Origin: a virus
Lineage: Duplodnaviria > Heunggongvirae > Uroviricota > Caudoviricetes
Reading direction: 5' to 3' (one strand)
Length of the DNA stretch: 12,539 bases
IMG/VR virus record: IMGVR_UViG_2529293139_000012
Part shown: positions 1-12,539 of the stretch, piece by piece
Layout of the letters: the number at the start of each line of letters is the position of its first letter
Position numbering within the stretch: position 1 is the stretch's first letter
Translations under genes and position numbers: made by a program
The notes under the pieces: generated by a model
The model's input: only the letters and a program-made list of their open reading frames with translations
Database searches by the model: none
Told to the model about the DNA's origin: nothing

Positions 1-687
1 CTAATAGCCAGGGATACCACCTTCTATATCTTTACTGATCTTCGCTCGTATATCAGCAGAGGGATAATCCAGGTCATTTTTACCACTACCCCCAATTCCC
101 ATAAAGTTAAAGGTATAATCAGGAATGATATCGATACCAAATTTTTTAGCATCTTTAACCAATGCAATAAAATCCTGCAAATCTCCCATTGGATTATGGA
201 TGGTACAAAGATCTTCGGGTTGATAAGCATGAAACCAGTAACCCTTTTCTTCTTCGGGAGTTTCTGGTCCGTCGGCGCGGAAAGTTGTCACTGGAGGGAT
301 TTGTATATACCCATAATGGCAACGTGCAAATTCAGACATATTTTCTCTGATCTGCTGGTAGGTGGCATTAAAAGCATGAAGAATCGCTTCGCCAGGTTTT
401 TTGGGGGTGATGATTTCACATTGTGATTTCTGAACAGCAGTAAGAGATTTACGCTCAAGTGTTTGCCGTAGATGTTCTAGATTGATTAATATTTTAAATG
501 TTTCTTGCTGTCCGGAAGGTGACGTCACGTTAATATTATATACATCGGCTGCCAGCTCATAGTCAGGAATGTTAATAGCATATGCAACATATTTATCTTT
601 TGGGGAAGGTTTGTCAGATATAATGTGGGTGAAATGTTCAGCACGACCATACTGATAAACACCGCTGTTATCACCTCTTTCAATCAT
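1..687 (-). CDS. Hypothetical protein, C-terminus truncated by window start; central region loosely resembles a glycoside hydrolase family 13 (alpha-amylase-like) fold
   Basis: Open minus-strand frame of 228 codons running off position 1; start ATG at 685-687, 18 nt after the stop of the upstream ORF. Segment 'GDLQDFIALVKDAKKFGIDIIPDYTFNF' has the layout of GH13 region I but lacks the canonical NH. AT-rich codon usage. Confidence 0.4.
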   Translation of the reverse strand: MIERGDNSGVYQYGRAEHFTHIISDKPSPKDKYVAYAINIPDYELAADVYNINVTSPSGQQETFKILINLEHLRQTLERKSLTAVQKSQCEIITPKKPGEAILHAFNATYQQIRENMSEFARCHYGYIQIPPVTTFRADGPETPEEEKGYWFHAYQPEDLCTIHNPMGDLQDFIALVKDAKKFGIDIIPDYTFNFMGIGGSGKNDLDYPSADIRAKISKDIEGGIPGY

Positions 688-705
688 TGTATCTCGTTGA
701 TAAGC

Positions 706-1038
706 CTATGTTTTTCTTTCTCCTATCCTGTCTGGCGCTGTAATGCTACGCTGTGCTGCTTTATTCAACTCTCGGTAAGTTGTATCTGGAGAAAGGGAAA
801 TTTTATAATCGTTTTTTAACAGATCATTAATAACTTTTTCTGCGTGAAAAGTTGATATAATTTCTCTGTCTTTTAATCCTTGAGGGTAAACTCCACAAGA
901 ATTAATAATATTTGTTATACAGTTTAGATATTCTAATGTATTTAATTTGGAATTTAGATCCCCGTCAGTAATGTTCCATGATAACAATGTGGGGTTGTCG
1001 ATAGGTAAATTTCTGGGTCCTGGTTTTATAGAAAACAT
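706..1038 (-). CDS. Hypothetical protein (110 aa), first gene of an AT-rich two-gene operon
   Basis: ORF with GAGGA Shine-Dalgarno about 10 nt upstream of the ATG at 1036-1038; stop 18 nt before the next ORF start. No recognisable motif. Confidence 0.45.
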   Translation of the reverse strand: MFSIKPGPRNLPIDNPTLLSWNITDGDLNSKLNTLEYLNCITNIINSCGVYPQGLKDREIISTFHAEKVINDLLKNDYKISLSPDTTYRELNKAAQRSITAPDRIGERKT

Positions 1039-1597: not shown

Positions 1598-1673
1598 GGC
1601 CCTTTAGCTCAGTGGTTAGAGCAGGCGACTCATAATCGCTTGGTCGTTGGTTCAAACCCAACAGGGGCCACCA
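1598..1673 (+). tRNA. tRNA with CAU anticodon, most similar to enterobacterial tRNA-Ile2 (lysidine-CAU, ileX/ileY-like); elongator tRNA-Met not excluded
   Basis: 76 nt, GGCCCTTTAGCTCAGTGGTTAGAGCAGGCGACTCATAATCGCTTGGTCGTTGGTTCAAACCCAACAGGGGCCACCA. Acceptor stem GGCCCTT/AGGGGCC pairs, anticodon loop CT-CAT-AA, T-loop TTCAAAC, encoded CCA. D-arm and anticodon arm match E. coli tRNA-Ile2 as I recall it; T-arm differs. Confidence 0.9.
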
Positions 1674-1681
1674 TATCTATC

Positions 1682-1719
1682 AAGGGGTTACGTTAACAGC
1701 GTGACCCCTTCGTTTTTTC
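1682..1719 (+). terminator. Rho-independent terminator after the tRNA
   Basis: Imperfect hairpin AAGGGGTTACG / CGTGACCCCTT followed by a T6 run (cgttttttc). Confidence 0.6.
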
Positions 1720-2056
1720 TAGGATACCTATAGGATACCGTGACAGAGTATAAGCAGGTATAAAAACAACAAGTTACGCAACATCATACCTGTCATGAAA
1801 CTTTAACTATCCGACATGATAGCTGGTCGATGATCACGGATAATCCGTTATGTGGATCCCCATATCGGCATCAGGCCCACCAGCGTGAAGCGTTTTTCAT
1901 TTTTCGCGGGTATAAAAAATCGATGGGGCTGGCAGTCCGGAAGACGTCAGGGTACAGAGATTTGCCCCGCCCCTCCCTGTGCATGGGCACAATAAGTAAC
2001 CGAAGGCGGAATTCCTCCCTCGGTACTCACATATGAGAAACGATATTTCTTCCTCT

Positions 2057-3137: not shown

Positions 3138-3220
3138 ATGAAAATGCAAAAACTAGCTTTTTCCGCGCCGTTCCCGCCCCGTGGCAGGCCACCTCACCGG
3201 GAGGACCCACCCAAAAAAGG
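3138..3220. repeat. Copy 1 of a GC-rich ~75-80 bp conserved non-coding element, upstream of the small terminase operon
   Basis: Near-identical to 6487-6560 (ATGAAAATGCAAAAAC.AGC.TTTTTCCGCGCCGTTCCCGCCCCGTGGCAGG.CAC..CACCGGGAGGACCCA). The plus-strand ORFs over the two copies share nucleotides but diverge in frame after about 5 codons, so the conservation is not protein-coding. Confidence 0.75.
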
Positions 3221-3293: not shown

Positions 3294-3965
3294 TCAGCGA
3301 CCAATCACCACAATCTGGCCGCCATCCCCTTCATCTGCCGTGCTGATCTCTTGCGAAATCACCCGCGACCCGACGCGCATTTCACCGTACAGAACAGGCA
3401 GAACATTGCCCTGGGCAACCATGTTATCCAGTGAGGAGAAATAGGTGTTCTGCTTACCGTTATCCGTTGTCTGTGTACGGGGAGTTCTGGCTTTCGGTGC
3501 CAGCATCTGCGCCACACCACCGAGCACCATACTGGCACCGAGAGAAAACAGGATGCCGGTCATACCACCGGCCCCAATGGCTGCCCCCCATGCTGCAAGG
3601 GTGGCTCCGGCGGTAAAGAATGATCCGGCAATGGCGGCAGCCCCCAGGACAATCTGGAATACGCCACCTAACTTGGCCCCGGCGACTCTGGGAACAATAT
3701 GAATCACAGCGCCATCAGGCAGAGTCTCATGTAACTGCGCCGTTAACCCGGACGTGCTGACGTCCCGCCCGGCAATCCGTACCTGATACCAGCCGTCGCT
3801 CAGTTTCTGACGAAACGCCGGGAGCTGTGTGGCCAGTGCCCGGATGGCTTCAGCCCCCGTTTTCACACGAAGGTCGATGCGGCGACCAAATCGTTGTAAA
3901 TCCCCGTAAAGGCAGATGCGTGCCATGCCCGGTGACGCCAGAGGGAGTGTGTGCGTCGCTGCCAT
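3294..3965 (-). CDS. Lambda gpI-like tail assembly protein (223 aa)
   Basis: Intact ORF with purine-rich stretch upstream of the ATG. N-terminal 'MAATHTLPLASPGMARICLYGDLQRFGRRIDLRVKTGAEAIRALA', a Gly/Ala-rich hydrophobic middle and C-terminal '...VVIGR' match my recollection of lambda tail assembly protein I. It is flanked by a capsid gene and a terminator rather than K and J homologs. Confidence 0.65.
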   Translation of the reverse strand: MAATHTLPLASPGMARICLYGDLQRFGRRIDLRVKTGAEAIRALATQLPAFRQKLSDGWYQVRIAGRDVSTSGLTAQLHETLPDGAVIHIVPRVAGAKLGGVFQIVLGAAAIAGSFFTAGATLAAWGAAIGAGGMTGILFSLGASMVLGGVAQMLAPKARTPRTQTTDNGKQNTYFSSLDNMVAQGNVLPVLYGEMRVGSRVISQEISTADEGDGGQIVVIGR

Positions 3966-4054
3966 TTGTCGGTATACCTCTCTCGTTTGCTCAGTTGTTC
4001 AGGAATATGGTGCGGCAGCTCGCCGCCCCACGTGTTCAAAGTACCGCCTTGTTG

Positions 4055-5968
4055 TCATGCTCCATTCGATTTCAGCAATCCACGATAATCGAGGGCCGCG
4101 ACACCTGCATCTATGCGCACCTTCCAGGCGACACCATCAACAGTAAAGCCCACCTGCTCCTCAAGATATGGCGTATCCATACCATCAAGATAAGCGACTT
4201 CTATTGTGTCCATCCCCTTAGCTGCGGCTACATACCATTCCTTGCTATTGGCCTTATCAAGACGTGGCTCAACAATTACTTCTGCCATATCTTTCACAAC
4301 GTTAATGATGCCGGGGTTCTGATTGATAGTGCCCTCATCACCAACCGGAAAGACTGATGACGATGACAGAATGGCGCGACGCGCGGCAGATTCCAGCGCG
4401 GCAGGGACCAGAACAAAAGCAGGGGTAATATTCAGTGAGTCGCCGTTAGCATCCTCCTGGAGGCGCATCAGCTTACGGGCTTCATCAAGCCCCACCATGT
4501 CCATATCCTTCGCAATAAGATTTTTATGATCGGCATGGAATAACGCTTTACCATCCGTAAACTTGCCGTTGCTGGTTAACAGGAGATAAACCAGATTGCC
4601 AACTGTTCTGGCGGCTGCGCGTCCCATCGCCATGGGGATTGTAGTTAACTGGGTCAGGTCATCGTTGATAATGGCCTGACGGGTAACGGAGAAAATATTC
4701 CCGTACGTGGCCAGCGCAATAGGTACACCTTTATCGCTGGTGGTGATGTATTTATATTCCGCACCTTCCGGTACTTTATCCAGCTTTGAAAAACCATTCA
4801 GACCAACGCGCTTTGCTTCATGAAAGTTTGAAAGCGAACCGGTACGCGTCCATTTCTGGAACGTTTCGCCGCTGTCCTGCCAGCCTTTCAGTACAGATTT
4901 TTCAGCCCCACCAGCCAGAATATGAGAAAAATCACTGCTGCTGTGTGTAAAAGCCGCATTAACAACCTGCGAGCGATTAATAAAACCACTCACAGTGATA
5001 CCACGATCAACCAGTGATGCCTGGGCCATTTCAAAAAGGCTCATCATCGCGTAAGGGTTGCCTCGTTCAGGGCGTTCATACCCAAGACGGGAATAAAGCC
5101 CCTGACGAATTGCATCACCTGTTATGTTTCCGTTTCCGGCATAGATATGAGCCGGGGTATTTTTATTGGATGGCGTGGACTCGCGCCCCAGCTCGTTCAA
5201 CAGCTTTTCACGGGCCATTTCCGGTGTACATGATGCATCTTCCAGACACGCCATTTTGATCCCGTCGTAACGACTGCCGAACAGGCTAAACACTTCACTT
5301 ATTCCATTGATGCGTTTCTGTTCATTACCAGCAATATTTGCCGCTCCCTGTGGCGGTGTAATCATTCCTTTAATGGTTTCCGGCATATGTAAAAAATCTC
5401 CTGTGCGCTTCGATTCAATTCGCGCCATTGCTCTGACGGATGGCAACAATTCATCAGCAAAACCGTGCTTAAGGCATTCTTTCCCGTCCATCCAGGTTTC
5501 ATCTTCCAGCATGGCGGTAATTTCCTGTGCTGATTTGCCCGTTTTTCTGGCATAAGCAGGGACTAACACGGTTTCCACCTTATCCAGCAAATCAGCATAA
5601 TCACGCATATCACCAGCATTTCCGCCAGAGATACCCCACGGCTTATGTATCATCATCATGGCGTTTTCCGGCATCACAACACGATCGCCAGCCATTGCGA
5701 CCACCGAAGCCATTGAAGCCGCAACACCATCGATATAAACCGTAATGTCTGCCGGATGATTCCGTAGCAGGTTATAGATGGCGATGCCTTCAAACACATC
5801 ACCACCTGGTGAATGGATCCTCAGATTGATATGTGAAACATCGCCAAGGGCTTTCAGGTCTTCCGCGAACTGCTTTGCAGTAACACCGAAGCCGCCAATC
5901 TCCTCATAGATAGATATATCCGCCGCTCCGCGAACATCCGCCGCCTTAATGGTGTACCAGCGATTCAT
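4055..5968 (-). CDS. Fusion of ClpP-like (S14) prohead protease with a major-capsid-like domain (637 aa)
   Basis: N-terminal ~200 aa carry ClpP-type motifs (IYEEIGGFG, HSPGGDVFEGIAIYNLL, IDGVAASMASVVAMAGDRVVMPENAMMMIHKPW). The remaining ~430 aa look like a phage major capsid domain, possibly Mu gpT-like; the family cannot be fixed without a search. Confidence 0.75.
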   Translation of the reverse strand: MNRWYTIKAADVRGAADISIYEEIGGFGVTAKQFAEDLKALGDVSHINLRIHSPGGDVFEGIAIYNLLRNHPADITVYIDGVAASMASVVAMAGDRVVMPENAMMMIHKPWGISGGNAGDMRDYADLLDKVETVLVPAYARKTGKSAQEITAMLEDETWMDGKECLKHGFADELLPSVRAMARIESKRTGDFLHMPETIKGMITPPQGAANIAGNEQKRINGISEVFSLFGSRYDGIKMACLEDASCTPEMAREKLLNELGRESTPSNKNTPAHIYAGNGNITGDAIRQGLYSRLGYERPERGNPYAMMSLFEMAQASLVDRGITVSGFINRSQVVNAAFTHSSSDFSHILAGGAEKSVLKGWQDSGETFQKWTRTGSLSNFHEAKRVGLNGFSKLDKVPEGAEYKYITTSDKGVPIALATYGNIFSVTRQAIINDDLTQLTTIPMAMGRAAARTVGNLVYLLLTSNGKFTDGKALFHADHKNLIAKDMDMVGLDEARKLMRLQEDANGDSLNITPAFVLVPAALESAARRAILSSSSVFPVGDEGTINQNPGIINVVKDMAEVIVEPRLDKANSKEWYVAAAKGMDTIEVAYLDGMDTPYLEEQVGFTVDGVAWKVRIDAGVAALDYRGLLKSNGA

Positions 5969-6486: not shown

Positions 6487-6560
6487 ATGAAAATGCAAAA
6501 ACCAGCCTTTTTCCGCGCCGTTCCCGCCCCGTGGCAGGTCACTACACCGGGAGGACCCAT
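6487..6560. repeat. Copy 2 of the GC-rich conserved non-coding element, upstream of the capsid operon
   Basis: Aligns with 3138-3220 over about 75 nt with a handful of substitutions and a 1 nt indel. Confidence 0.75.
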
Positions 6561-6582
6561 AAAAAAGCCGGATTGCTCCGGC
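6561..6582 (-). terminator. Rho-independent terminator on the minus strand, between the putative ori and repeat copy 2
   Basis: GCCGGA-ttgc-TCCGGC hairpin followed on the minus strand by T6. Confidence 0.6.
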
Positions 6583-6713: not shown

Positions 6714-6941
6714 CTTCACCTGTTCACCTTTTGATATTTTCTCTTTTAATTCATAATGTTAAGGGGTGAGCAGTTTCACAAAAACTATTCACCAACTGTT
6801 CACCACTGTTCACCCTTGAAGCTCAATAAACAATCAAAAAGGTGAACAGTGAATAGTTTGGTGAACAGTTCATAAATAACTGTTCACCCTATAATATACT
6901 GATATAAAAGATATTTATGACAGGGTGAACAGTGGTGAACA
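6714..6941. repeat. Iteron cluster, putative replication origin
   Basis: At least nine copies of the 8-mer GGTGAACA / TGTTCACC in both orientations (6721, 6797, 6807, 6841, 6860, 6881, 6924, 6934, plus degenerate copies) flanking an AT-rich core (ctgatataaaagatatttatga), directly 3' of the primase-helicase gene. Related CAGGTGAAAA(A)CAG motifs at 6350 and 6427. Confidence 0.65.
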
Positions 6942-6955
6942 GTTATTCCATAAGT

Positions 6956-8731
6956 TTAATTTTTGCTATCGTCATTAGTGACCGATACACATGATGGCAT
7001 CCAGTCTTCTGATTCCTCCGTCAGTGTCACGTTTGAACGCAAACCGTGCTTCGTTTTCCGTTTCATATACTCCCTGCCATATTCCGCCATTGCCCCCGGC
7101 ATATCTTTACCGAAGCGCGTCAGTGTTACAGGTTTACCAAACCCATGTGCCCTCATATAAGCCAGATAGGCATGATAGAGATACCTGCGTGGGCTGAATG
7201 GCACAATTTCAGCATTACCCACTAACAGGCCATCACACATTACCGACGCCATGAGATAGCCGCAGAAGTCCACCAGCGAATCCCCCTCTCGCTTTATCGC
7301 CAGTGCTTCTTCAGATTTCTGCTGCTCATATAACAGGCGTCTGGCTTCGTCCTGGTCAGCAAACCGTGTAAGCAGATGGCGAATCACTACCGCCAGCTCA
7401 CCTTCTATTTTTTCCGCCAGCATTGGATCGCGTTCGTTCTCCGGTACAACTTCCGAAAAATTGAATATCACCCGACGACGTGAGATCCCCCCGCTGCGGT
7501 CACTGAATGACATGGCGTTATTGTTAACCGCCAGCACTACTGCCGGAATACGCGTTGAGTAGGGGGCTTTGTGTTTCGGATCAATTGCCACCTTGTCACC
7601 GCCTGTAATGGCCTTAATTCCTGCCCCATCACCAGCGTAGCGGGTCATATCCGGCATGATAATCAGCGAAAAGCCAACCACTAACGCGCGTTCCCTTGCA
7701 TCTTCCAGCGCCTTCATGCTTGCCGATACTGTGTTGGCCTTACCCGCCAGCATGGTGCAAATCTCCGCCATCACGCTTTTACCACTTCCCCCTGGACCTG
7801 TTACCTCAATGAATAACTGCCAGTCGTACCGGTTCGCCAGCACCATGAATAATGCAGCCAGTACGCGATCCGCCTTGCGGTCATTCTCAGCCACCGAACG
7901 GCGTAACCACTTCCAGAAATTCGGCGCATGTGTTGCCAGCGTTTCCCCCTCTGCTGGTGGGCTGAAAGGTAATTCACTGGCAATTAACAACCAGTCGTTT
8001 TTGTTATGCTCCCGAAAATTACCTGTTCTGGTATCAAATACCCCGTTACTGAATCCAATCAGGTTACGGGCTGTATTCCCCATAACAGGCAAACTTAACT
8101 TCATGGTATCGACCGCCGATTTAATGGCGTTCTGCGAATAGCTGATCTCCGCATCAATGAAAATCTGTGCCATAGCTCGCTGTAATTCTTTATCCTGTAC
8201 TGGCTCCCATACAACGCCGTTGTAATGGTGAACAGTGTCAGAGTCAGCATGAATCGCCAGTTCACCGCCATAATGTGCCAGGAGAACTTCGCCGCGTTGA
8301 CTTGCTCCCATCTGGTTAAGCGCCAGTGATGAAGCGTTATCGTCTTTTACCCGCTCTTTTTTCTTTACAGGCAGTTCAACTACCTTTTTCTTTTCCGCCA
8401 GCTCTGCCCGTTCACGTTCCAGATATTCGCGCCAGTTCTCCCGTTTCTGGCTGTGCATTCCTTCAGGGTAATAATCAGCATCCCTGACACCTGCCTCTGC
8501 CAGTTTCTGCCCGATGGTATTAACAAGCCCCGGACGCAATAACCCCGCCTGATAGAGACGCACGCGATAGCGTCCGTCCGGTACGATTTGCAGGTTGTCC
8601 AGTTCGGCAAGTTGTTGCTCTCCAAGCCAGACAGGTGGCACGTTATCGCCAGCCAGTCGCCCGTCCTGTTCCTGCCACTGATTCGCATGTGCCCACGCAT
8701 CACTACCCGCAAAAATGATGACTTCCGTCAT
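6956..8731 (-). CDS. Phage/plasmid primase P4-family C-terminal domain helicase (D5-like NTPase), putative replication initiator Pri-Rep (591 aa)
   Basis: Walker A 'VTGPGGSGKS' with the surrounding D5_N-like region (NFWKWLRR...YDWQLFIEVTGPGGSGKSV...VIFNF); the gene is followed immediately by the iteron cluster. Confidence 0.8.
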   Translation of the reverse strand: MTEVIIFAGSDAWAHANQWQEQDGRLAGDNVPPVWLGEQQLAELDNLQIVPDGRYRVRLYQAGLLRPGLVNTIGQKLAEAGVRDADYYPEGMHSQKRENWREYLERERAELAEKKKVVELPVKKKERVKDDNASSLALNQMGASQRGEVLLAHYGGELAIHADSDTVHHYNGVVWEPVQDKELQRAMAQIFIDAEISYSQNAIKSAVDTMKLSLPVMGNTARNLIGFSNGVFDTRTGNFREHNKNDWLLIASELPFSPPAEGETLATHAPNFWKWLRRSVAENDRKADRVLAALFMVLANRYDWQLFIEVTGPGGSGKSVMAEICTMLAGKANTVSASMKALEDARERALVVGFSLIIMPDMTRYAGDGAGIKAITGGDKVAIDPKHKAPYSTRIPAVVLAVNNNAMSFSDRSGGISRRRVIFNFSEVVPENERDPMLAEKIEGELAVVIRHLLTRFADQDEARRLLYEQQKSEEALAIKREGDSLVDFCGYLMASVMCDGLLVGNAEIVPFSPRRYLYHAYLAYMRAHGFGKPVTLTRFGKDMPGAMAEYGREYMKRKTKHGLRSNVTLTEESEDWMPSCVSVTNDDSKN

Positions 8732-8770
8732 TTTGTCACGCGGCTGGTGTTTTAAATTTGGCGCTTTTTT

Positions 8771-10055: not shown

Positions 10056-10265
10056 TTACACCGTCTGCGTTCTGCGAGTGGATGCAAGATAAGCATCGAG
10101 ATCAGTGCGCATATACAGCACTTTGCGACCAAGCTTATGGAAAGGGATTTTTACCTTGCCAGTACACGCCCAGTTCGCCAGTGTTTGATTGTTAACGCCA
10201 AGGTAGGCAGCAGCTTCAGCACGTGTAAGGCGGTCAGTTGATAAATCAGATTTCTTTAAATTCAT
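10056..10265 (-). CDS. AlpA/excisionase-family HTH DNA-binding protein (about 69 aa)
   Basis: Start taken at ATG 10263-10265 (MNLKKSDL); the ORF-track form starts 3 codons earlier at a GTG. HTH 'LTRAEAAAYLGVNNQTLANWACTGKVKIPFHKLGRKVLYMRTDLDAYL' has the Xis/AlpA architecture. Confidence 0.6.
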   Translation of the reverse strand: MNLKKSDLSTDRLTRAEAAAYLGVNNQTLANWACTGKVKIPFHKLGRKVLYMRTDLDAYLASTRRTQTV

Positions 10266-10407: not shown

Positions 10408-11133
10408 CTATTGGGGGTGAACAAGCTCAAACGAAGAGTATTTATCAGGCTTTGGTGGTTGTGCCCCTGATTCTTTAATCCATCTATCTAGCGTGTTTTT
10501 ACTTACTTTCCCATGGTAGTAAACAGAAAGCTCGTTCAATAAACCTGTTTTACTGGCTTTAGGGTACTTTTCCCATGTTAGTTTAATTACGTGCATAACT
10601 TCATTGTAATAATGATTTCTTGGTTTGCGCGCTTTTTCTTTCTGTGATAAGGATAAAGCATCCTTTATTTTTTTATCTTTTTCATGGTTCGATATAATTT
10701 CTTCAAAAAAATCATTAAGCAATAACTCAACACCAACTCTAGTAAGTTTGTCTGCGTGATTACGCATTCCGACATGGTACAATGCAACTGCTGAATTTAA
10801 AGTATCGACAACCTGACAAGATAGTTTACTATCAAATATTAAAAAACCACACGAATCAATTTTTGCAGCTAATTCAATAGGATATTGCTCGATTTCACTT
10901 GATTCTAAACCATAACACAAAAGAAATTCTCTTGTTGGATATTTTGATTTATAAAAATAATCTCTTATATCATCAATCAAGCGTTTTATAGCCTCTATGG
11001 TGGAGTTTCTCGGGGATAAAGATACAGGAACGTTTAAAACTGAAGATTCTCGCCCACCAGTAATTAAATCATTCATAACCGAATAAATAATATATTGTTT
11101 GACCGATATATTGTTATCATCCATATATGTCAT
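10408..11133 (-). CDS. AT-rich hypothetical protein (241 aa), candidate accessory/cargo gene
   Basis: ORF overlapping the integrase 3' end by 17 nt. Visibly much more AT-rich than the island genes on either side, with Lys/Asn/Ile/Tyr-rich codon usage. No recognisable catalytic motif; the C-terminus (KNTLDRWIKESG) may be HTH-like. Confidence 0.55.
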   Translation of the reverse strand: MTYMDDNNISVKQYIIYSVMNDLITGGRESSVLNVPVSLSPRNSTIEAIKRLIDDIRDYFYKSKYPTREFLLCYGLESSEIEQYPIELAAKIDSCGFLIFDSKLSCQVVDTLNSAVALYHVGMRNHADKLTRVGVELLLNDFFEEIISNHEKDKKIKDALSLSQKEKARKPRNHYYNEVMHVIKLTWEKYPKASKTGLLNELSVYYHGKVSKNTLDRWIKESGAQPPKPDKYSSFELVHPQ

Positions 11134-12539
11134 TCTTTTCTTGTACTATAGCAAATAGTAAACGACGTTTTTCATCATCACTCATGCCCTCCAGTGCGGA
11201 AAGCAATTGCGCATCGATAGATTTTTTACTCTCCACCAGCCCGGCATGTTCCTGAATTGCCCGTTCTATCCGTGACGCTGGCTCCAGCAATTCATCAGCA
11301 CCAAAATGTAAATACCCCTGCGTTACGTCAGCACTTCGCATAGTACGGTGATTCATCAGGCGCTTGAGGATGTAATTGCCCACGCCCACCAGTTCGGCAA
11401 CCGTTCCGAACGTCCGGCGCGCATCGTGCCATTTGAATGGTACAGGGGAGAGCATTTCATCGTTCGACTCTGAAACGGTAGCCGCGCTTATCCGGTCTAT
11501 GATGTGCCGTGTCTCCTGAATAACGCCCTTCACACCAGGAAACACCAGCACATCATCAGCAGCTTTGTTTTTTAGCCTGCGAAGAAACATTTTCCGCAAC
11601 GTATCAGTGATCGGCAGTTCAAGCGGATCCCCGTTTTTCGTGGTGTCTATCCAGAAAAAAACGACCGCCCATATTCACGCGATCCCACGTAAGGCCAAAA
11701 ATTTCTGATTTCCTCAGTCCGGTAAAAAGCGCCATTTCCACGGCATCGCATACCGTCACCGCTATATCATCCCTTTCCTGTTCGCCCTGGTCGCGCACAG
11801 CAGCTACAGCAGCAAACCAGCGGGGAAAATCATGCAGGCGGATACGTTCCGTTTTTCTTACCGTTCCGTGCCACTGGCGCTTGGTGCTCAGTACCAGAGT
11901 CGGCGGATCCGGTAAAAGAGTATTACCCGCATCATCACGGTAATGATCATGCGCAAACCGACACACAGCACGTAGCGCACGCGCCCATAAATCGGCCTGT
12001 GCCTTGCTTCCTGTACCAACCCCAGCCCGTAACGTGGTTTTATCAGCACCGAACCATACAGCCCCATCAGTGATGGCCTTATGCCGTTGTTCCACCCGTT
12101 CGCGGGAAATACTGGCGAGGGTATGGGCCATCCAGTCACCGGAATAATTCTGTAATATGCTGCGGTACTGTTTTTCTGTGGCGGGTTTCAGGCGGTGGCC
12201 ACGATTTTTTACGTAGGCGTCAATCGCCTCACTCAGCGTTATCATGGCCTTGTTGTTAGTGCGCTTTGCTATGTTCGGATTTATCCCCGTTGTGGCGACT
12301 TCGCCAAGGAGTTCCATAGCTTTAGCCCTGGCATTATCCACGCTCAGATCAGGAAAACGCCCCAGCGTTGCACGAATAAATTTTCCGTTACGCTTACGGG
12401 AAATGCAGAAACTTTTCACACCAGACGAACCTACACGGACACGCAGCCCGTTAACCTCCGTATCACCATATTCGACCTGTCCATGTTCCGGCGTTGGCAG
12501 TTCTGCAATTTTTACTTTAGAGAATCTGAATAATTTCAC
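11117..12539 (-). pseudogene. Tyrosine site-specific integrase (P4-like family), interrupted by a frameshift in an A7 run at 11655-11661; N-terminus runs off the window
   Basis: The 306-aa upstream frame carries the first Arg box (TGLRKSEIFGLTWDRV); the 160-aa downstream frame carries HDARRTF and the catalytic Tyr region (RSADVTQGY). Removing one base from the homopolymer joins them as ...GRFFWIDTTKNGDPLELPITDTLRKMFLRRLK.... Confidence 0.85.

What the first reader, a model, noticed from the sequence alone, without database searches (positions are those of the whole stretch)
1598..1673. The tRNA 3' end as the probable attachment site
The island genes begin directly after the tRNA and its terminator, and tyrosine integrases of this kind usually target tRNA 3' ends. 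Unusually, the integrase is at the distal end of the island. The tRNA T-arm also differs from the E. coli tRNA-Ile2 sequence I recall, suggesting a different host lineage or a divergent copy.
Basis: partly seen in the sequence, partly recalled or inferred. Interest (0 to 1): 0.4.

Follow-up and report, generated by a model that had tools for sequence, protein, structure and literature searches.

The report
Satellite island inserted in tRNA-Ile2 gene
The tRNA at 1598-1673 is the left junction of an 11-kb phage-satellite island inserted into the E. coli ileY tRNA gene at the anticodon loop, so the tRNA's last 46 bases are island DNA; islands of this type at this site have already been described.

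Summary
A copy of the tRNA's 3' portion lies 181 nt beyond the window end, just past the integrase start. It was found in strain L73, which matches the window except at three positions.

The repeat is 46 nt, running from the anticodon loop to CCA. Only its first 19 nt (window 1628-1646) are identical between the two copies. The T-arm differs, so the crossover lies in the anticodon-loop to variable-loop block and not at the 3' end.

The tRNA in the window is therefore a hybrid. Its first 30 nt are chromosomal ileY. Its 3' part and its terminator are island DNA. K-12 has the empty site.

The odd T-arm is the island's copy. The same allele appears to be native in Kluyvera and in unidentified metagenome bacteria.

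The distal integrase is not unusual for this site. Phage 186 uses the same site with the same layout, and three integrase relatives in other genera also sit next to the displaced fragment.

The element is a Gram-negative PICI-type phage satellite. It is found at ileX as well as ileY. A 2023 paper supplement (PMC10111431) lists a right-junction arm (57 nt shown) identical to ours and describes CLP_protease-bearing PICIs in tRNA-Ile2. The finding is ordinary and already known.

The parts
1598..1673 (+). Hybrid tRNA-Ile2 (anticodon CAU) gene at the ileY locus. This is attL of the island.
   Evidence: The cloverleaf keeps all standard pairs, with one U6-G67 wobble.
1598..1627 (+). Chromosomal 5' part of ileY (tRNA positions 1-30). 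The native upstream flank continues to its left.
   Evidence: The 5' part and the upstream flank visibly match K-12 ileY by reading the two sequences side by side. No alignment was run.
1628..1646 (.). 19-nt identity block ACTCATAATCGCTTGGTCG shared by attL, attR and attB. The strand exchange must lie within it.
   Evidence: The left edge of tRNA likeness is the same in five attR copies from four genera.
1629..1635 (.). Anticodon loop CTCATAA. This is the predicted 7-bp overlap (crossover) region. It is inferred, not shown.
   Evidence: The phage 186 record annotates the same 7 nt as its predicted crossover. tRNA likeness in attP starts at this edge in all relatives.
1647..1673 (+). Island-supplied T-arm, 3' acceptor strand and CCA. 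It carries the variant allele GTTGG-TTCAAAC-CCAAC.
   Evidence: It differs from the displaced native fragment at attR and from K-12. The same sequence is present at the ileX copy of the island.
1682..1720 (+). Terminator-like hairpin plus T run for the hybrid tRNA. It is island DNA (P' arm).
   Evidence: It is absent from the K-12 ileY downstream flank.
1720..1739 (+). Doubled motif TAGGATACC x2. Probable arm-type integrase-binding sites of the P' arm.
   Evidence: Five of the six AGGATACC matches in the 36.5-kb locus lie in the two att arms; 0.62 are expected by chance. The doubled GGATA motif is conserved in relatives. The layout parallels the annotated P4 attP arm repeats.
11117..12539 (-). 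Tyrosine integrase with Arm-DNA-bind_3 and Phage_integrase domains. In the window it is split by a 1-nt homopolymer insertion at 11655.
   Evidence: It is an intact 473-aa protein in strain L73.
10056..10265 (-). 69-aa HTH_17 / excisionase-family protein. Candidate AlpA/Xis-like regulator.
   Evidence: Pfam HTH_17, 45.1 bits against a cut-off of 27. TIGR01764 excisionase family, 38.8 bits against 28.8.
6956..8731 (-). Replication protein. Its C-terminal 450 aa are 51% identical to the helicase part of P4 alpha.
6838..6953 (.). Repeats of GGTGAACAGT (4-5 copies) directly downstream of the replication gene. Probable origin of replication.
   Evidence: families D4, D6 and D10. PICI origins lie downstream of pri (PMC10111431; PMC6092414).
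6498..6566 (-). cos-like sequence, copy 2.
   Evidence: 86% identical to copy 1. Copy 1 is the one that was searched against phage genomes.
3148..3216 (-). cos-like sequence, copy 1, about 75 nt upstream of the TerS-like gene.
   Evidence: It matches the ends of lambdoid phage records mEp460, cdtI and Tritos.
4055..5968 (-). ClpP-like prohead protease / major capsid protein fusion. This is the CLP_protease gene noted for tRNA-Ile2 PICIs.
   Evidence: NF045540, 902 bits. PMC10111431.
2499..3071 (-). DUF1441 / small-terminase-like protein.
   Evidence: phrog_141.

Best explanation
The window holds the left junction (attL) and almost the whole body of an 11.09-kb integrative phage satellite of the Gram-negative PICI type. 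It is inserted in the E. coli ileY gene for tRNA-Ile2.

Shown:
- The island's attP carries a 46-nt replacement for tRNA positions 31-76, plus its own terminator.
- Recombination took place inside the 19-nt block ACTCATAATCGCTTGGTCG (window 1628-1646).
- The gene now in the window has a chromosomal 5' part and an island-supplied 3' part. It still folds as a cloverleaf.
- The native 3' part was displaced. It lies 181 nt upstream of the integrase start, just outside the window (attR).

Inferred:
- The 7-bp overlap is the anticodon loop CTCATAA, flanked by imperfect inverted core sites.
- The integrase binds the doubled AGGATACC motifs on both arms through its N-terminal arm-binding domain.
- The small HTH_17 protein directs excision.
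- Mobilisation is by a lambdoid cos helper phage.
For: Direct repeat: window 1628-1677 matches L001 24718-24767.

Empty site: by eye, the K-12 ileY locus reads as the window's left flank, the 5' tRNA part, the attR fragment and the right flank joined together, with no island. No alignment was run.

Second site: the same island with the same attL and attR structure sits at ileX in other strains. There the native ileX 3' half and its terminator are displaced to attR. Seven complete genomes have the island at ileY. 87 genomes carry this P arm.

Edge of tRNA likeness: it is at A31/C32 in all five attR copies from E. coli, Kluyvera, Leclercia and Aeromonas, while the P arms diverge right up to it. 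The 30 metagenome fragments are consistent with this, but the search pattern itself began at A31.

Arm motif: AGGATACC occurs 6 times in 36.5 kb against 0.62 expected, and 5 of the 6 are in the att arms. The arm layout relative to int parallels the annotated P4 attP.

Phage 186: it carries the same 46-nt segment, and the same 7 nt are annotated as its predicted crossover.

Natural tandems: junctions of a 186-type P arm, the core and a PICI-type P' arm occur in metagenome contigs.

Literature: PMC10111431 describes PICIs in tRNA-Ile2 that carry a CLP_protease gene. Its supplement lists an attR, Eco12671.21.M, whose 57-nt P-arm stretch is identical to ours.

Island modules: integrase, HTH_17 protein, P4-alpha-like replication protein, repeats downstream of it, and two cos-like sites.
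Against: No excised circular attP junction was found by exact search in viral or metagenome contigs. Current mobility of this copy is therefore not shown.

In the window, the integrase is frameshifted at a homopolymer. If that is real, this copy cannot excise on its own.

The exact cleavage positions within the 19-nt block cannot be read from sequence alone.

No sigma-70-like int promoter was found in the P arm by the simple scan.
Confidence: 0.88

Rival explanations
1. One reading: the integrase recombines at the extreme 3' end or T-loop of the tRNA, within the last 15-25 nt. The whole tRNA and its terminator would then be chromosomal, and the island would begin after them.
For: Many integrases with this arm-binding domain use the T-loop or 3' end. 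A preprint reports that most group I.a integrases start in the T-loop. Pasteurellaceae PICIs in tRNA-Ile2 use the T-loop.
Against: attL and attR differ at tRNA positions 50, 59, 60 and 64 (and 67 at ileY). They are identical only from 31 to 49. The native T-arm and native downstream flank are found at attR, not at attL. The terminator at 1682-1720 is absent from the empty K-12 site.
Confidence: 0.03
2. The tRNA is a complete gene carried by the island, or a divergent host paralogue, and the island boundaries lie elsewhere.
For: In most genomes the BLAST match to the window starts exactly at 1595-1598, the tRNA start, at a different chromosomal place. Many phages carry whole tRNA-Ile2-like genes.
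Against: The other place is ileX, whose 5' part is nearly identical to that of ileY. That explains why the match starts there. Position 6 follows the locus and not the island: T at ileY and C at ileX. The 5' part is therefore chromosomal. K-12 has the ileY 5' part and flank without the island.
Confidence: 0.03
3. The element is a decayed, immobile remnant. The repeat would be a scar of one ancient integration, and the tRNA junction would no longer be a working attachment site.
For: The integrase is frameshifted in the window, and there is a second homopolymer indel near the start of the replication gene. The island carries stray phage late-gene pieces, a tail assembly I gene and a partial tail protein. 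L73 has a stop codon in the DUF1441 gene. No attP junction was found in public contigs.
Against: The two closest complete genomes lack both indels, and L73 is annotated with an intact 473-aa integrase. Islands 97-100% identical occupy two different tRNA genes in different strains, and most genomes have empty sites. attL and attR are undamaged.
Confidence: 0.06

Closest known systems
tRNA-Ile2 PICIs of Enterobacteriaceae, e.g. Eco12671.21.M (PMC10111431)
   Same: The target gene is the same. The supplement's 57-nt attR P-arm stretch (aatactaaggtattgaaaagtatcgctaagtatctgtaagtaaagggttatcaaccaAC|TCATAATCGC...) is identical to ours. The island carries a CLP_protease gene and, per the paper, a phylogenetically distinctive integrase.
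   Different: The published example is a 20.6-kb composite invaded by a helper-embedded PICI in the protease gene. Here the protease-capsid gene is uninterrupted and the island is 11.09 kb. The paper says these PICIs lack alpA. This copy has an HTH_17 / excisionase-family gene. This copy sits at ileY, the rarer of the two sites.
Coliphage 186 attP/attB (ileY and ileX)
   Same: The attB genes are the same (PMC3448106). The 46-nt tRNA segment carried in attP, positions 31-76, is the same. The predicted crossover is the anticodon loop CTCATAA. The int gene is on the P-arm side, so it ends up next to the displaced fragment and far from the intact tRNA.
   Different: The integrases show no BLASTP similarity (E = 1.3). 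The arm-site motifs differ: YAYCGCCAYTY in 186 against AGGATACC here. The 186 int is transcribed toward the core, while the island int is transcribed away from it. Phage 186 carries the canonical E. coli T-arm and the island carries a variant one.
Satellite phage P4 (int/attP module and alpha replication protein)
   Same: The integrase domain architecture is the same, an arm-binding domain plus a catalytic domain, with 21% identity and E = 7e-4. The attP layout relative to int is the same: an inverted arm repeat near the int start, a doubled arm repeat, the core 150-180 nt from the int start, and a second doubled arm repeat beyond the core. The helicase part of the replication protein is 51% identical to P4 alpha.
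   Different: P4 targets the 3' end of leuX with a 20-bp core. Its tRNA-like core has the same orientation as int, so P4-type int genes lie next to the intact tRNA. Here the tRNA segment is inverted relative to int and the exchange is at the anticodon loop. The record shows no match to P4's sid, delta or psu: the pairwise P4 comparisons covered only Int and alpha, and the family searches of the island proteins listed nothing annotated as such. The island has lambdoid cos and capsid genes instead.
EcCICFT073, the model Gram-negative PICI (PMC6092414)
   Same: Size class. The int, regulator and pri genes run in one direction. The origin lies downstream of pri. There is a capsid-protein homologue. 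EcCICFT073 has two functional cos sites, and this island has two cos-like sequences.
   Different: I did not look up the EcCICFT073 attachment site or compare the two elements directly. PICI att sites were described as never occupied by prophages. This site is shared with phage 186 and with 186-like prophages.

Membership tests
tRNA-integrated genomic island (Islander signature) | An intact tDNA plus a displaced 3' tDNA fragment, in the same orientation, bracketing the element | tested here: met
   tRNA at 1598-1673. The fragment starts 181 nt beyond the window end, in the same orientation. The definition is from PMC4383910.
tRNA-integrated genomic island (Islander signature) | A tyrosine integrase gene inside the interval | tested here: met
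   Phage_integrase and Arm-DNA-bind_3 domains. The gene is frameshifted in the window but intact in L73.
tRNA-integrated genomic island (Islander signature) | An uninterrupted attB in a related genome that equals the left flank plus the right flank | tested here: met
   K-12 MG1655 ileY locus, compared by eye.
Anticodon-loop sublocation class of tRNA att sites (Williams 2002 classification) | The attP/attB identity or tRNA-like block starts at the anticodon loop and extends to the 3' end | tested here: met
   The block starts at A31/C32 in all five attR copies from four genera and in E. coli at both loci.
Anticodon-loop sublocation class of tRNA att sites (Williams 2002 classification) | The strand exchange falls within the 7-nt anticodon loop, flanked by symmetric core sites | not testable with these tools
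   The exchange is confined only to the 19-nt block 1628-1646. By my own inspection, the inverse of the right half-site matches the tRNA left half-site at 7 of 9 positions and the attP left half-site at 6 of 9. Cleavage mapping is needed.
Gram-negative PICI (phage-inducible chromosomal island) | int, a small HTH regulator (alpA) and pri, all in one direction, in a 10-20 kb element | tested here: met
   All lie on the minus strand and the island is 11.09 kb. The regulator matches HTH_17 and the excisionase family. No match to a Phage_AlpA model was listed.
Gram-negative PICI (phage-inducible chromosomal island) | A replication origin with repeats directly downstream of pri | tested here: met
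   GGTGAACAGT repeated 4-5 times at 6838-6953. Function was not tested.
Gram-negative PICI (phage-inducible chromosomal island) | A packaging signal or terS that allows capture by a helper phage | tested here: inconclusive
   There are two cos-like sequences. Copy 1 matches the ends of lambdoid phage genomes. There is a DUF1441 / TerS-like gene. Function was not tested.
Gram-negative PICI (phage-inducible chromosomal island) | Induction, excision, replication and transfer dependent on a helper phage | not testable with these tools
   No excised junction was found in viral or metagenome contigs.
Gram-negative PICI (phage-inducible chromosomal island) | A unique att site never occupied by prophages (PMC6092414) | tested here: not met
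   Phage 186 uses ileY and ileX at the same loop. 186-like prophages occur in tandem with PICI-type arms.
P4-like satellite | P4-type hijacking genes (sid, delta, psu) and dependence on a P2 helper | tested here: inconclusive
   Pfam and PHROGs searches of the main island proteins listed nothing annotated as sid, delta or psu. No island protein was compared directly with those P4 proteins. Only the alpha helicase part (51% identity) and a distant Int are shared with P4.

The most novel reading that the evidence does not exclude
The PICI and unrelated 186-type temperate phages exchange DNA at the same 7-nt anticodon loop, and PICI integration leaves a fully usable attB in the hybrid tRNA. The tRNA-Ile2 genes could therefore act as a shared docking site. 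There, satellites and prophages would stack in tandem and could co-excise, swap att arms or regulate each other. The foreign T-arm and the U6-G67 wobble in the hybrid tRNA could also measurably change decoding of the rare AUA codon, or make the host dependent on the island.
Probability: 0.07. Interest if true: 0.45.

Novelty: already known. Interest (0 to 1): 0.15.

Why it matters
It gives exact island boundaries for annotating this locus. It shows that the annotated tRNA-Ile gene is a chimera whose 3' part and terminator are mobile DNA. It explains why about 9% of complete E. coli genomes carry a tRNA-Ile2 3' half with a non-E. coli T-arm (473 of 5426).

It is also a clear example of two integrases with no detectable sequence similarity, phage 186 Int and the PICI Int, using the same sublocation of the same tRNA gene. 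That qualifies the rule that PICI att sites are never used by prophages.

None of this is new in kind.

Tried and rejected
1. Exact searches for the excised attP junction (P arm, core, island T-arm) found nothing in IMG/VR viral contigs or in metagenome contigs. There is therefore no direct evidence of a circular form.

2. The scan of GTDB genomes with the integrase gave only three relatives. Their islands ran past the 10-kb flank or the contig end, so their attL copies could not be read and the 19-nt block could not be narrowed.

3. tblastn with E. coli NfeF, NfeR, Aer, Mug and the ypjCB-region product against the three relatives' flanks gave nothing. The claim that the Kluyvera fragment is native therefore rests only on its downstream terminator, which resembles the native ileX one.

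4. Rfam at gathering thresholds found only the tRNA.

5. The integrase has no sequence relative in the PDB and no similarity to 186 Int.

6. A search of phage records with the ileY gene mostly returned whole phage tRNA genes and was not informative about attP sites.

7. Williams 2002 (PMC100330) is not held. The sublocation classes are cited through PMC4383910, PMC10111431 and a preprint.

8. No sigma-70-like promoter was found for int in the P arm.

9. PADLOC gave no hit for the four small or unknown island proteins.

10. Considered and rejected: a different host lineage, an island-borne whole tRNA, and a 3'-end crossover. See the rival explanations.

Full report
**What is at 1598-1673**

ARAGORN finds a single tRNA there, on the + strand, with anticodon CAT. 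Rfam's tRNA model scores it 70.5 bits. The window matches E. coli strains L73 and PK5074 over its whole length at 99.98% identity. In L73 the gene is annotated tRNA-Ile and lies between the ygaQ alpha-amylase pseudogene and ypjC. That is the ileY locus. A CAT anticodon in a tRNA-Ile gene marks tRNA-Ile2, whose C34 is converted to lysidine. This last point is established knowledge and was not tested here.

I fetched L73 DNA beyond the window end. A direct repeat of the tRNA's 3' portion lies there. Window 1628-1677 matches L001 24718-24767, which starts 181 nt past the integrase start codon at the window end. The repeat covers tRNA positions 31-76.

Its first 19 nt, ACTCATAATCGCTTGGTCG, are identical in the two copies. 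After that the T-arms differ:

| Copy | T-arm and 3' acceptor strand |
|---|---|
| Intact gene in the window | GTTGG-TTCAAAC-CCAAC, then AGGGGCC |
| Displaced fragment | GCTGG-TTCAAGT-CCAGC, then AAGGGCC |

K-12 MG1655 has no island. Read side by side, its ileY locus is the window's left flank, the first 30 nt of the tRNA, the displaced fragment and the right flank joined together. No alignment was run for this comparison.

The island is therefore 11,090 bp in L73. The exchange occurred inside 1628-1646. The tRNA in the window is a chimera with a chromosomal 5' part and an island-supplied 3' part. The terminator-like hairpin at 1682-1720 is island DNA, because it is absent from the K-12 downstream flank.

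**The hybrid tRNA**

All cloverleaf pairs remain standard. The T-stem change is compensatory, C50-G64 becoming U50-A64. The only cost at ileY is a U6-G67 wobble, because native ileY has U6-A67 while the island's copy has G67.

At ileX, which has C6, the hybrid acceptor stem is perfect. Position 6 follows the locus and not the island. This confirms that the 5' part is chromosomal.

**A second site**

In most other genomes that carry the island, the match starts at the tRNA and lies between mug and nfeF. That is ileX. There attR holds the native ileX 3' half and its native terminator. Seven complete genomes have the island at ileY. 87 genomes carry this P arm.

The variant 3' half is present in 473 of 5426 complete E. 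coli genomes, always on the chromosome. In O145:H28 RM12581 it abuts a different island at ileX. In the three E. coli cases I inspected, the variant T-arm sits next to foreign DNA.

**Where the variant T-arm comes from**

An integrase relative in Kluyvera has, at its attR, a fragment with this same variant T-arm. That fragment is followed by a terminator resembling the native ileX one.

In metagenome contigs the variant 3' half is common. Of the matches, 81 are whole tRNAs and 30 are displaced fragments. Many fragments have non-E. coli flanks that also occur downstream of whole tRNAs. The allele therefore appears to be native in some other enterobacteria, and the island carries it into E. coli.

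**Where the crossover is**

The sequence confines it to 1628-1646. In five attR copies from four genera, the P arms diverge right up to A31/C32, while everything to the right is tRNA-like. The 30 metagenome fragments are consistent with this, although the search pattern itself began at A31.

An attP needs to carry tRNA sequence only to the right of the exchange. This edge therefore argues that the exchange begins at the 5' side of the anticodon loop.

Phage 186 integrates in ileY and ileX (PMC3448106). It carries the same 46-nt segment, and its record annotates the same 7 nt as the predicted crossover: TTATGAG, the complement of CTCATAA.

Anticodon-centred attP sites make up 2083 of 3919 Islander islands (PMC4383910). 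The loop as the overlap region is my inference. The 19-nt block is what the data show.

**attP anatomy**

AGGATACC occurs 6 times in the 36.5-kb locus against 0.62 expected. Five of the six are in the att arms:
- a doublet 93-111 nt after the start of the core block (window 1721-1739);
- a doublet 109-127 nt before the core;
- an inverted copy nearer the int start.

The doubled GGATA motif is kept even in the Aeromonas relative. The P arm also holds an inverted copy and a direct copy of the core's right half, ATCGCTTGGT.

This layout relative to int parallels the annotated P4 attP. P4 has an inverted arm repeat at the int start, a doublet, the core about 150 nt from the int start, and a second doublet beyond the core. 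I take the motifs to be arm-type sites for the integrase's Arm-DNA-bind_3 domain. That is inferred.

**The distal integrase**

In the excised circle, int would be 181 nt from the core, so it is adjacent to attP as usual. Its distal position simply reflects the orientation of the tRNA segment relative to int.

The same placement is seen in phage 186. It is also seen in all three integrase relatives, which have the fragment 180-190 nt upstream of int. P4 has the opposite orientation.

The island integrase shows no detectable similarity to 186 Int and is only a distant relative of P4 Int, at 21% identity.

**What the island is**

All on the minus strand, in order:
- the integrase;
- a 241-aa protein that matched no family;
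- an HTH_17 / excisionase-family protein;
- small proteins, one of which PGAP annotates as Icd-like;
- a replication protein whose C-terminal 450 aa are 51% identical to P4 alpha;
- repeats directly downstream of it;
- a ClpP-protease / major-capsid fusion;
- a lambda-I-type tail assembly gene and a partial tail gene;
- a TerS-like DUF1441 gene;
- two cos-like sequences. Copy 1 matches the ends of lambdoid phage genomes.

This is the Gram-negative PICI pattern (PMC6092414; PMC10111431). PMC10111431 explicitly describes PICIs integrated in tRNA-Ile2 that carry a CLP_protease gene and distinctive integrases. Its supplement prints an attR, Eco12671.21.M, whose 57-nt P-arm stretch is identical to ours and whose identity block begins at ACTCATAATCGC. 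This island type and its att site were therefore already mapped.

**Tandems**

Six metagenome junctions join a 186-type P arm to the core and then to a PICI-type P' arm carrying a terminator. Five of the six P' arms also carry the GGATAC- or GGATA-type motif (L025, L029, L049, L085, L123); the L120 arm does not. The 186-type P arm has AGTGGCGATA-type arm sites. In two of the six (L029, L123) the upstream stretch also encodes a 186-like Int C-terminus. At least L029 and L049 lie on contigs longer than 200 kb.

These look like 186-like prophages inserted into the hybrid tRNA of a resident PICI. The hybrid attL therefore remains a usable attB, and both integrase types exchange in the same block. 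This conflicts with the stated PICI hallmark of att sites never occupied by prophages.

**State of this copy**

Compared with L73, the window has one SNP and two 1-nt homopolymer insertions:
- The insertion at 11655 splits the integrase at about residue 295, inside the catalytic domain.
- The insertion at 8765 affects the start of the replication gene.

The two closest complete genomes lack both insertions. They may be sequencing errors. If they are real, this copy cannot excise by itself.

**Verdict**

The tRNA gene is the att site and the predicted repeat exists. However, the crossover is at the anticodon-loop region, the 3' part of the tRNA and its terminator belong to the island, the integrase position is normal for this site, and the T-arm difference is the signature of the island-supplied half. 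This is an already described kind of element at an already mapped site.

Noticed in passing
window 11655, 8765 and 2764: Compared with strain L73, the window has an extra A at 11655 (A7 against A6) that frameshifts the integrase inside its catalytic domain. It has an extra T at 8765 (T7 against T6) near the start of the replication gene. It has a SNP at 2764, where L73 carries a stop codon in the DUF1441 gene and the window is intact. Two homopolymer indels suggest sequencing error, but a real pseudogene is not excluded.
   Followed up: partly
window 3148-3216 and 6498-6566 (minus strand): Two copies, 86% identical, of a 69-nt-plus element. Copy 1 matches the extreme ends of lambdoid phage records: mEp460 at its right end, cdtI and Tritos at positions 1-97. 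The copies are therefore probably cos sites. EcCICFT073 also has two functional cos sites.
   Followed up: partly
window 6838-6953: GGTGAACAGT repeated 4-5 times directly downstream of the replication gene. Probable origin of replication.
   Followed up: no
window 3294-4024 (minus strand): A lambda tail-assembly-I-type gene and, at about 3863-4024, a partial phage tail protein gene sit inside a satellite that otherwise has no tail module. This looks like a piece captured from a lambdoid phage.
   Followed up: no
window 10408-11133 (minus strand): A 241-aa ORF in an AT-rich stretch (GC 0.32-0.35) between the integrase and the HTH gene. It overlaps the integrase stop codon. It has no Pfam, PHROGs or PADLOC match. 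It may be accessory or anti-phage cargo.
   Followed up: partly
L001 24549-24609, the P arm just outside the window end: A dense symmetric arrangement between the int start and the arm doublet: ACCAAGCGAT / GGTATCCTGGA / ATCGCTTG / TCCAGGATACC. It includes an inverted copy and a direct copy of the core's right half-site. It may be an operator for autoregulation of int. No sigma-70-like promoter was found there.
   Followed up: partly
E. coli complete genomes; L128 (O145:H28 RM12581, ileX): The variant tRNA-Ile2 3' half occurs in 473 of 5426 genomes, with up to 5 copies in one genome. In RM12581 it abuts a different island carrying a CbtA/YeeU toxin-antitoxin pair and a reverse transcriptase. 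Several island families therefore share this attP tRNA segment.
   Followed up: partly
L025, L029, L049, L085, L120, L123 (metagenome contigs): Junctions of a 186-like prophage P arm, the core and a PICI-type P' arm. At least L029 and L049 lie on contigs longer than 200 kb. These imply tandem arrays of a prophage and a satellite at tRNA-Ile2.
   Followed up: partly
L028 (metagenome contig, 4886 nt): Only about 4.8 kb separates a tRNA junction with a PICI-type P' arm from a second fragment with a different P arm, which is followed by another island-type arm. This would be a very small element within a tandem array.
   Followed up: no
window 1-1038 (minus strand): The left flank is the ygaQ alpha-amylase-like pseudogene, which has an internal stop as in K-12. 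It is AT-rich, with GC 0.31-0.41.
   Followed up: no
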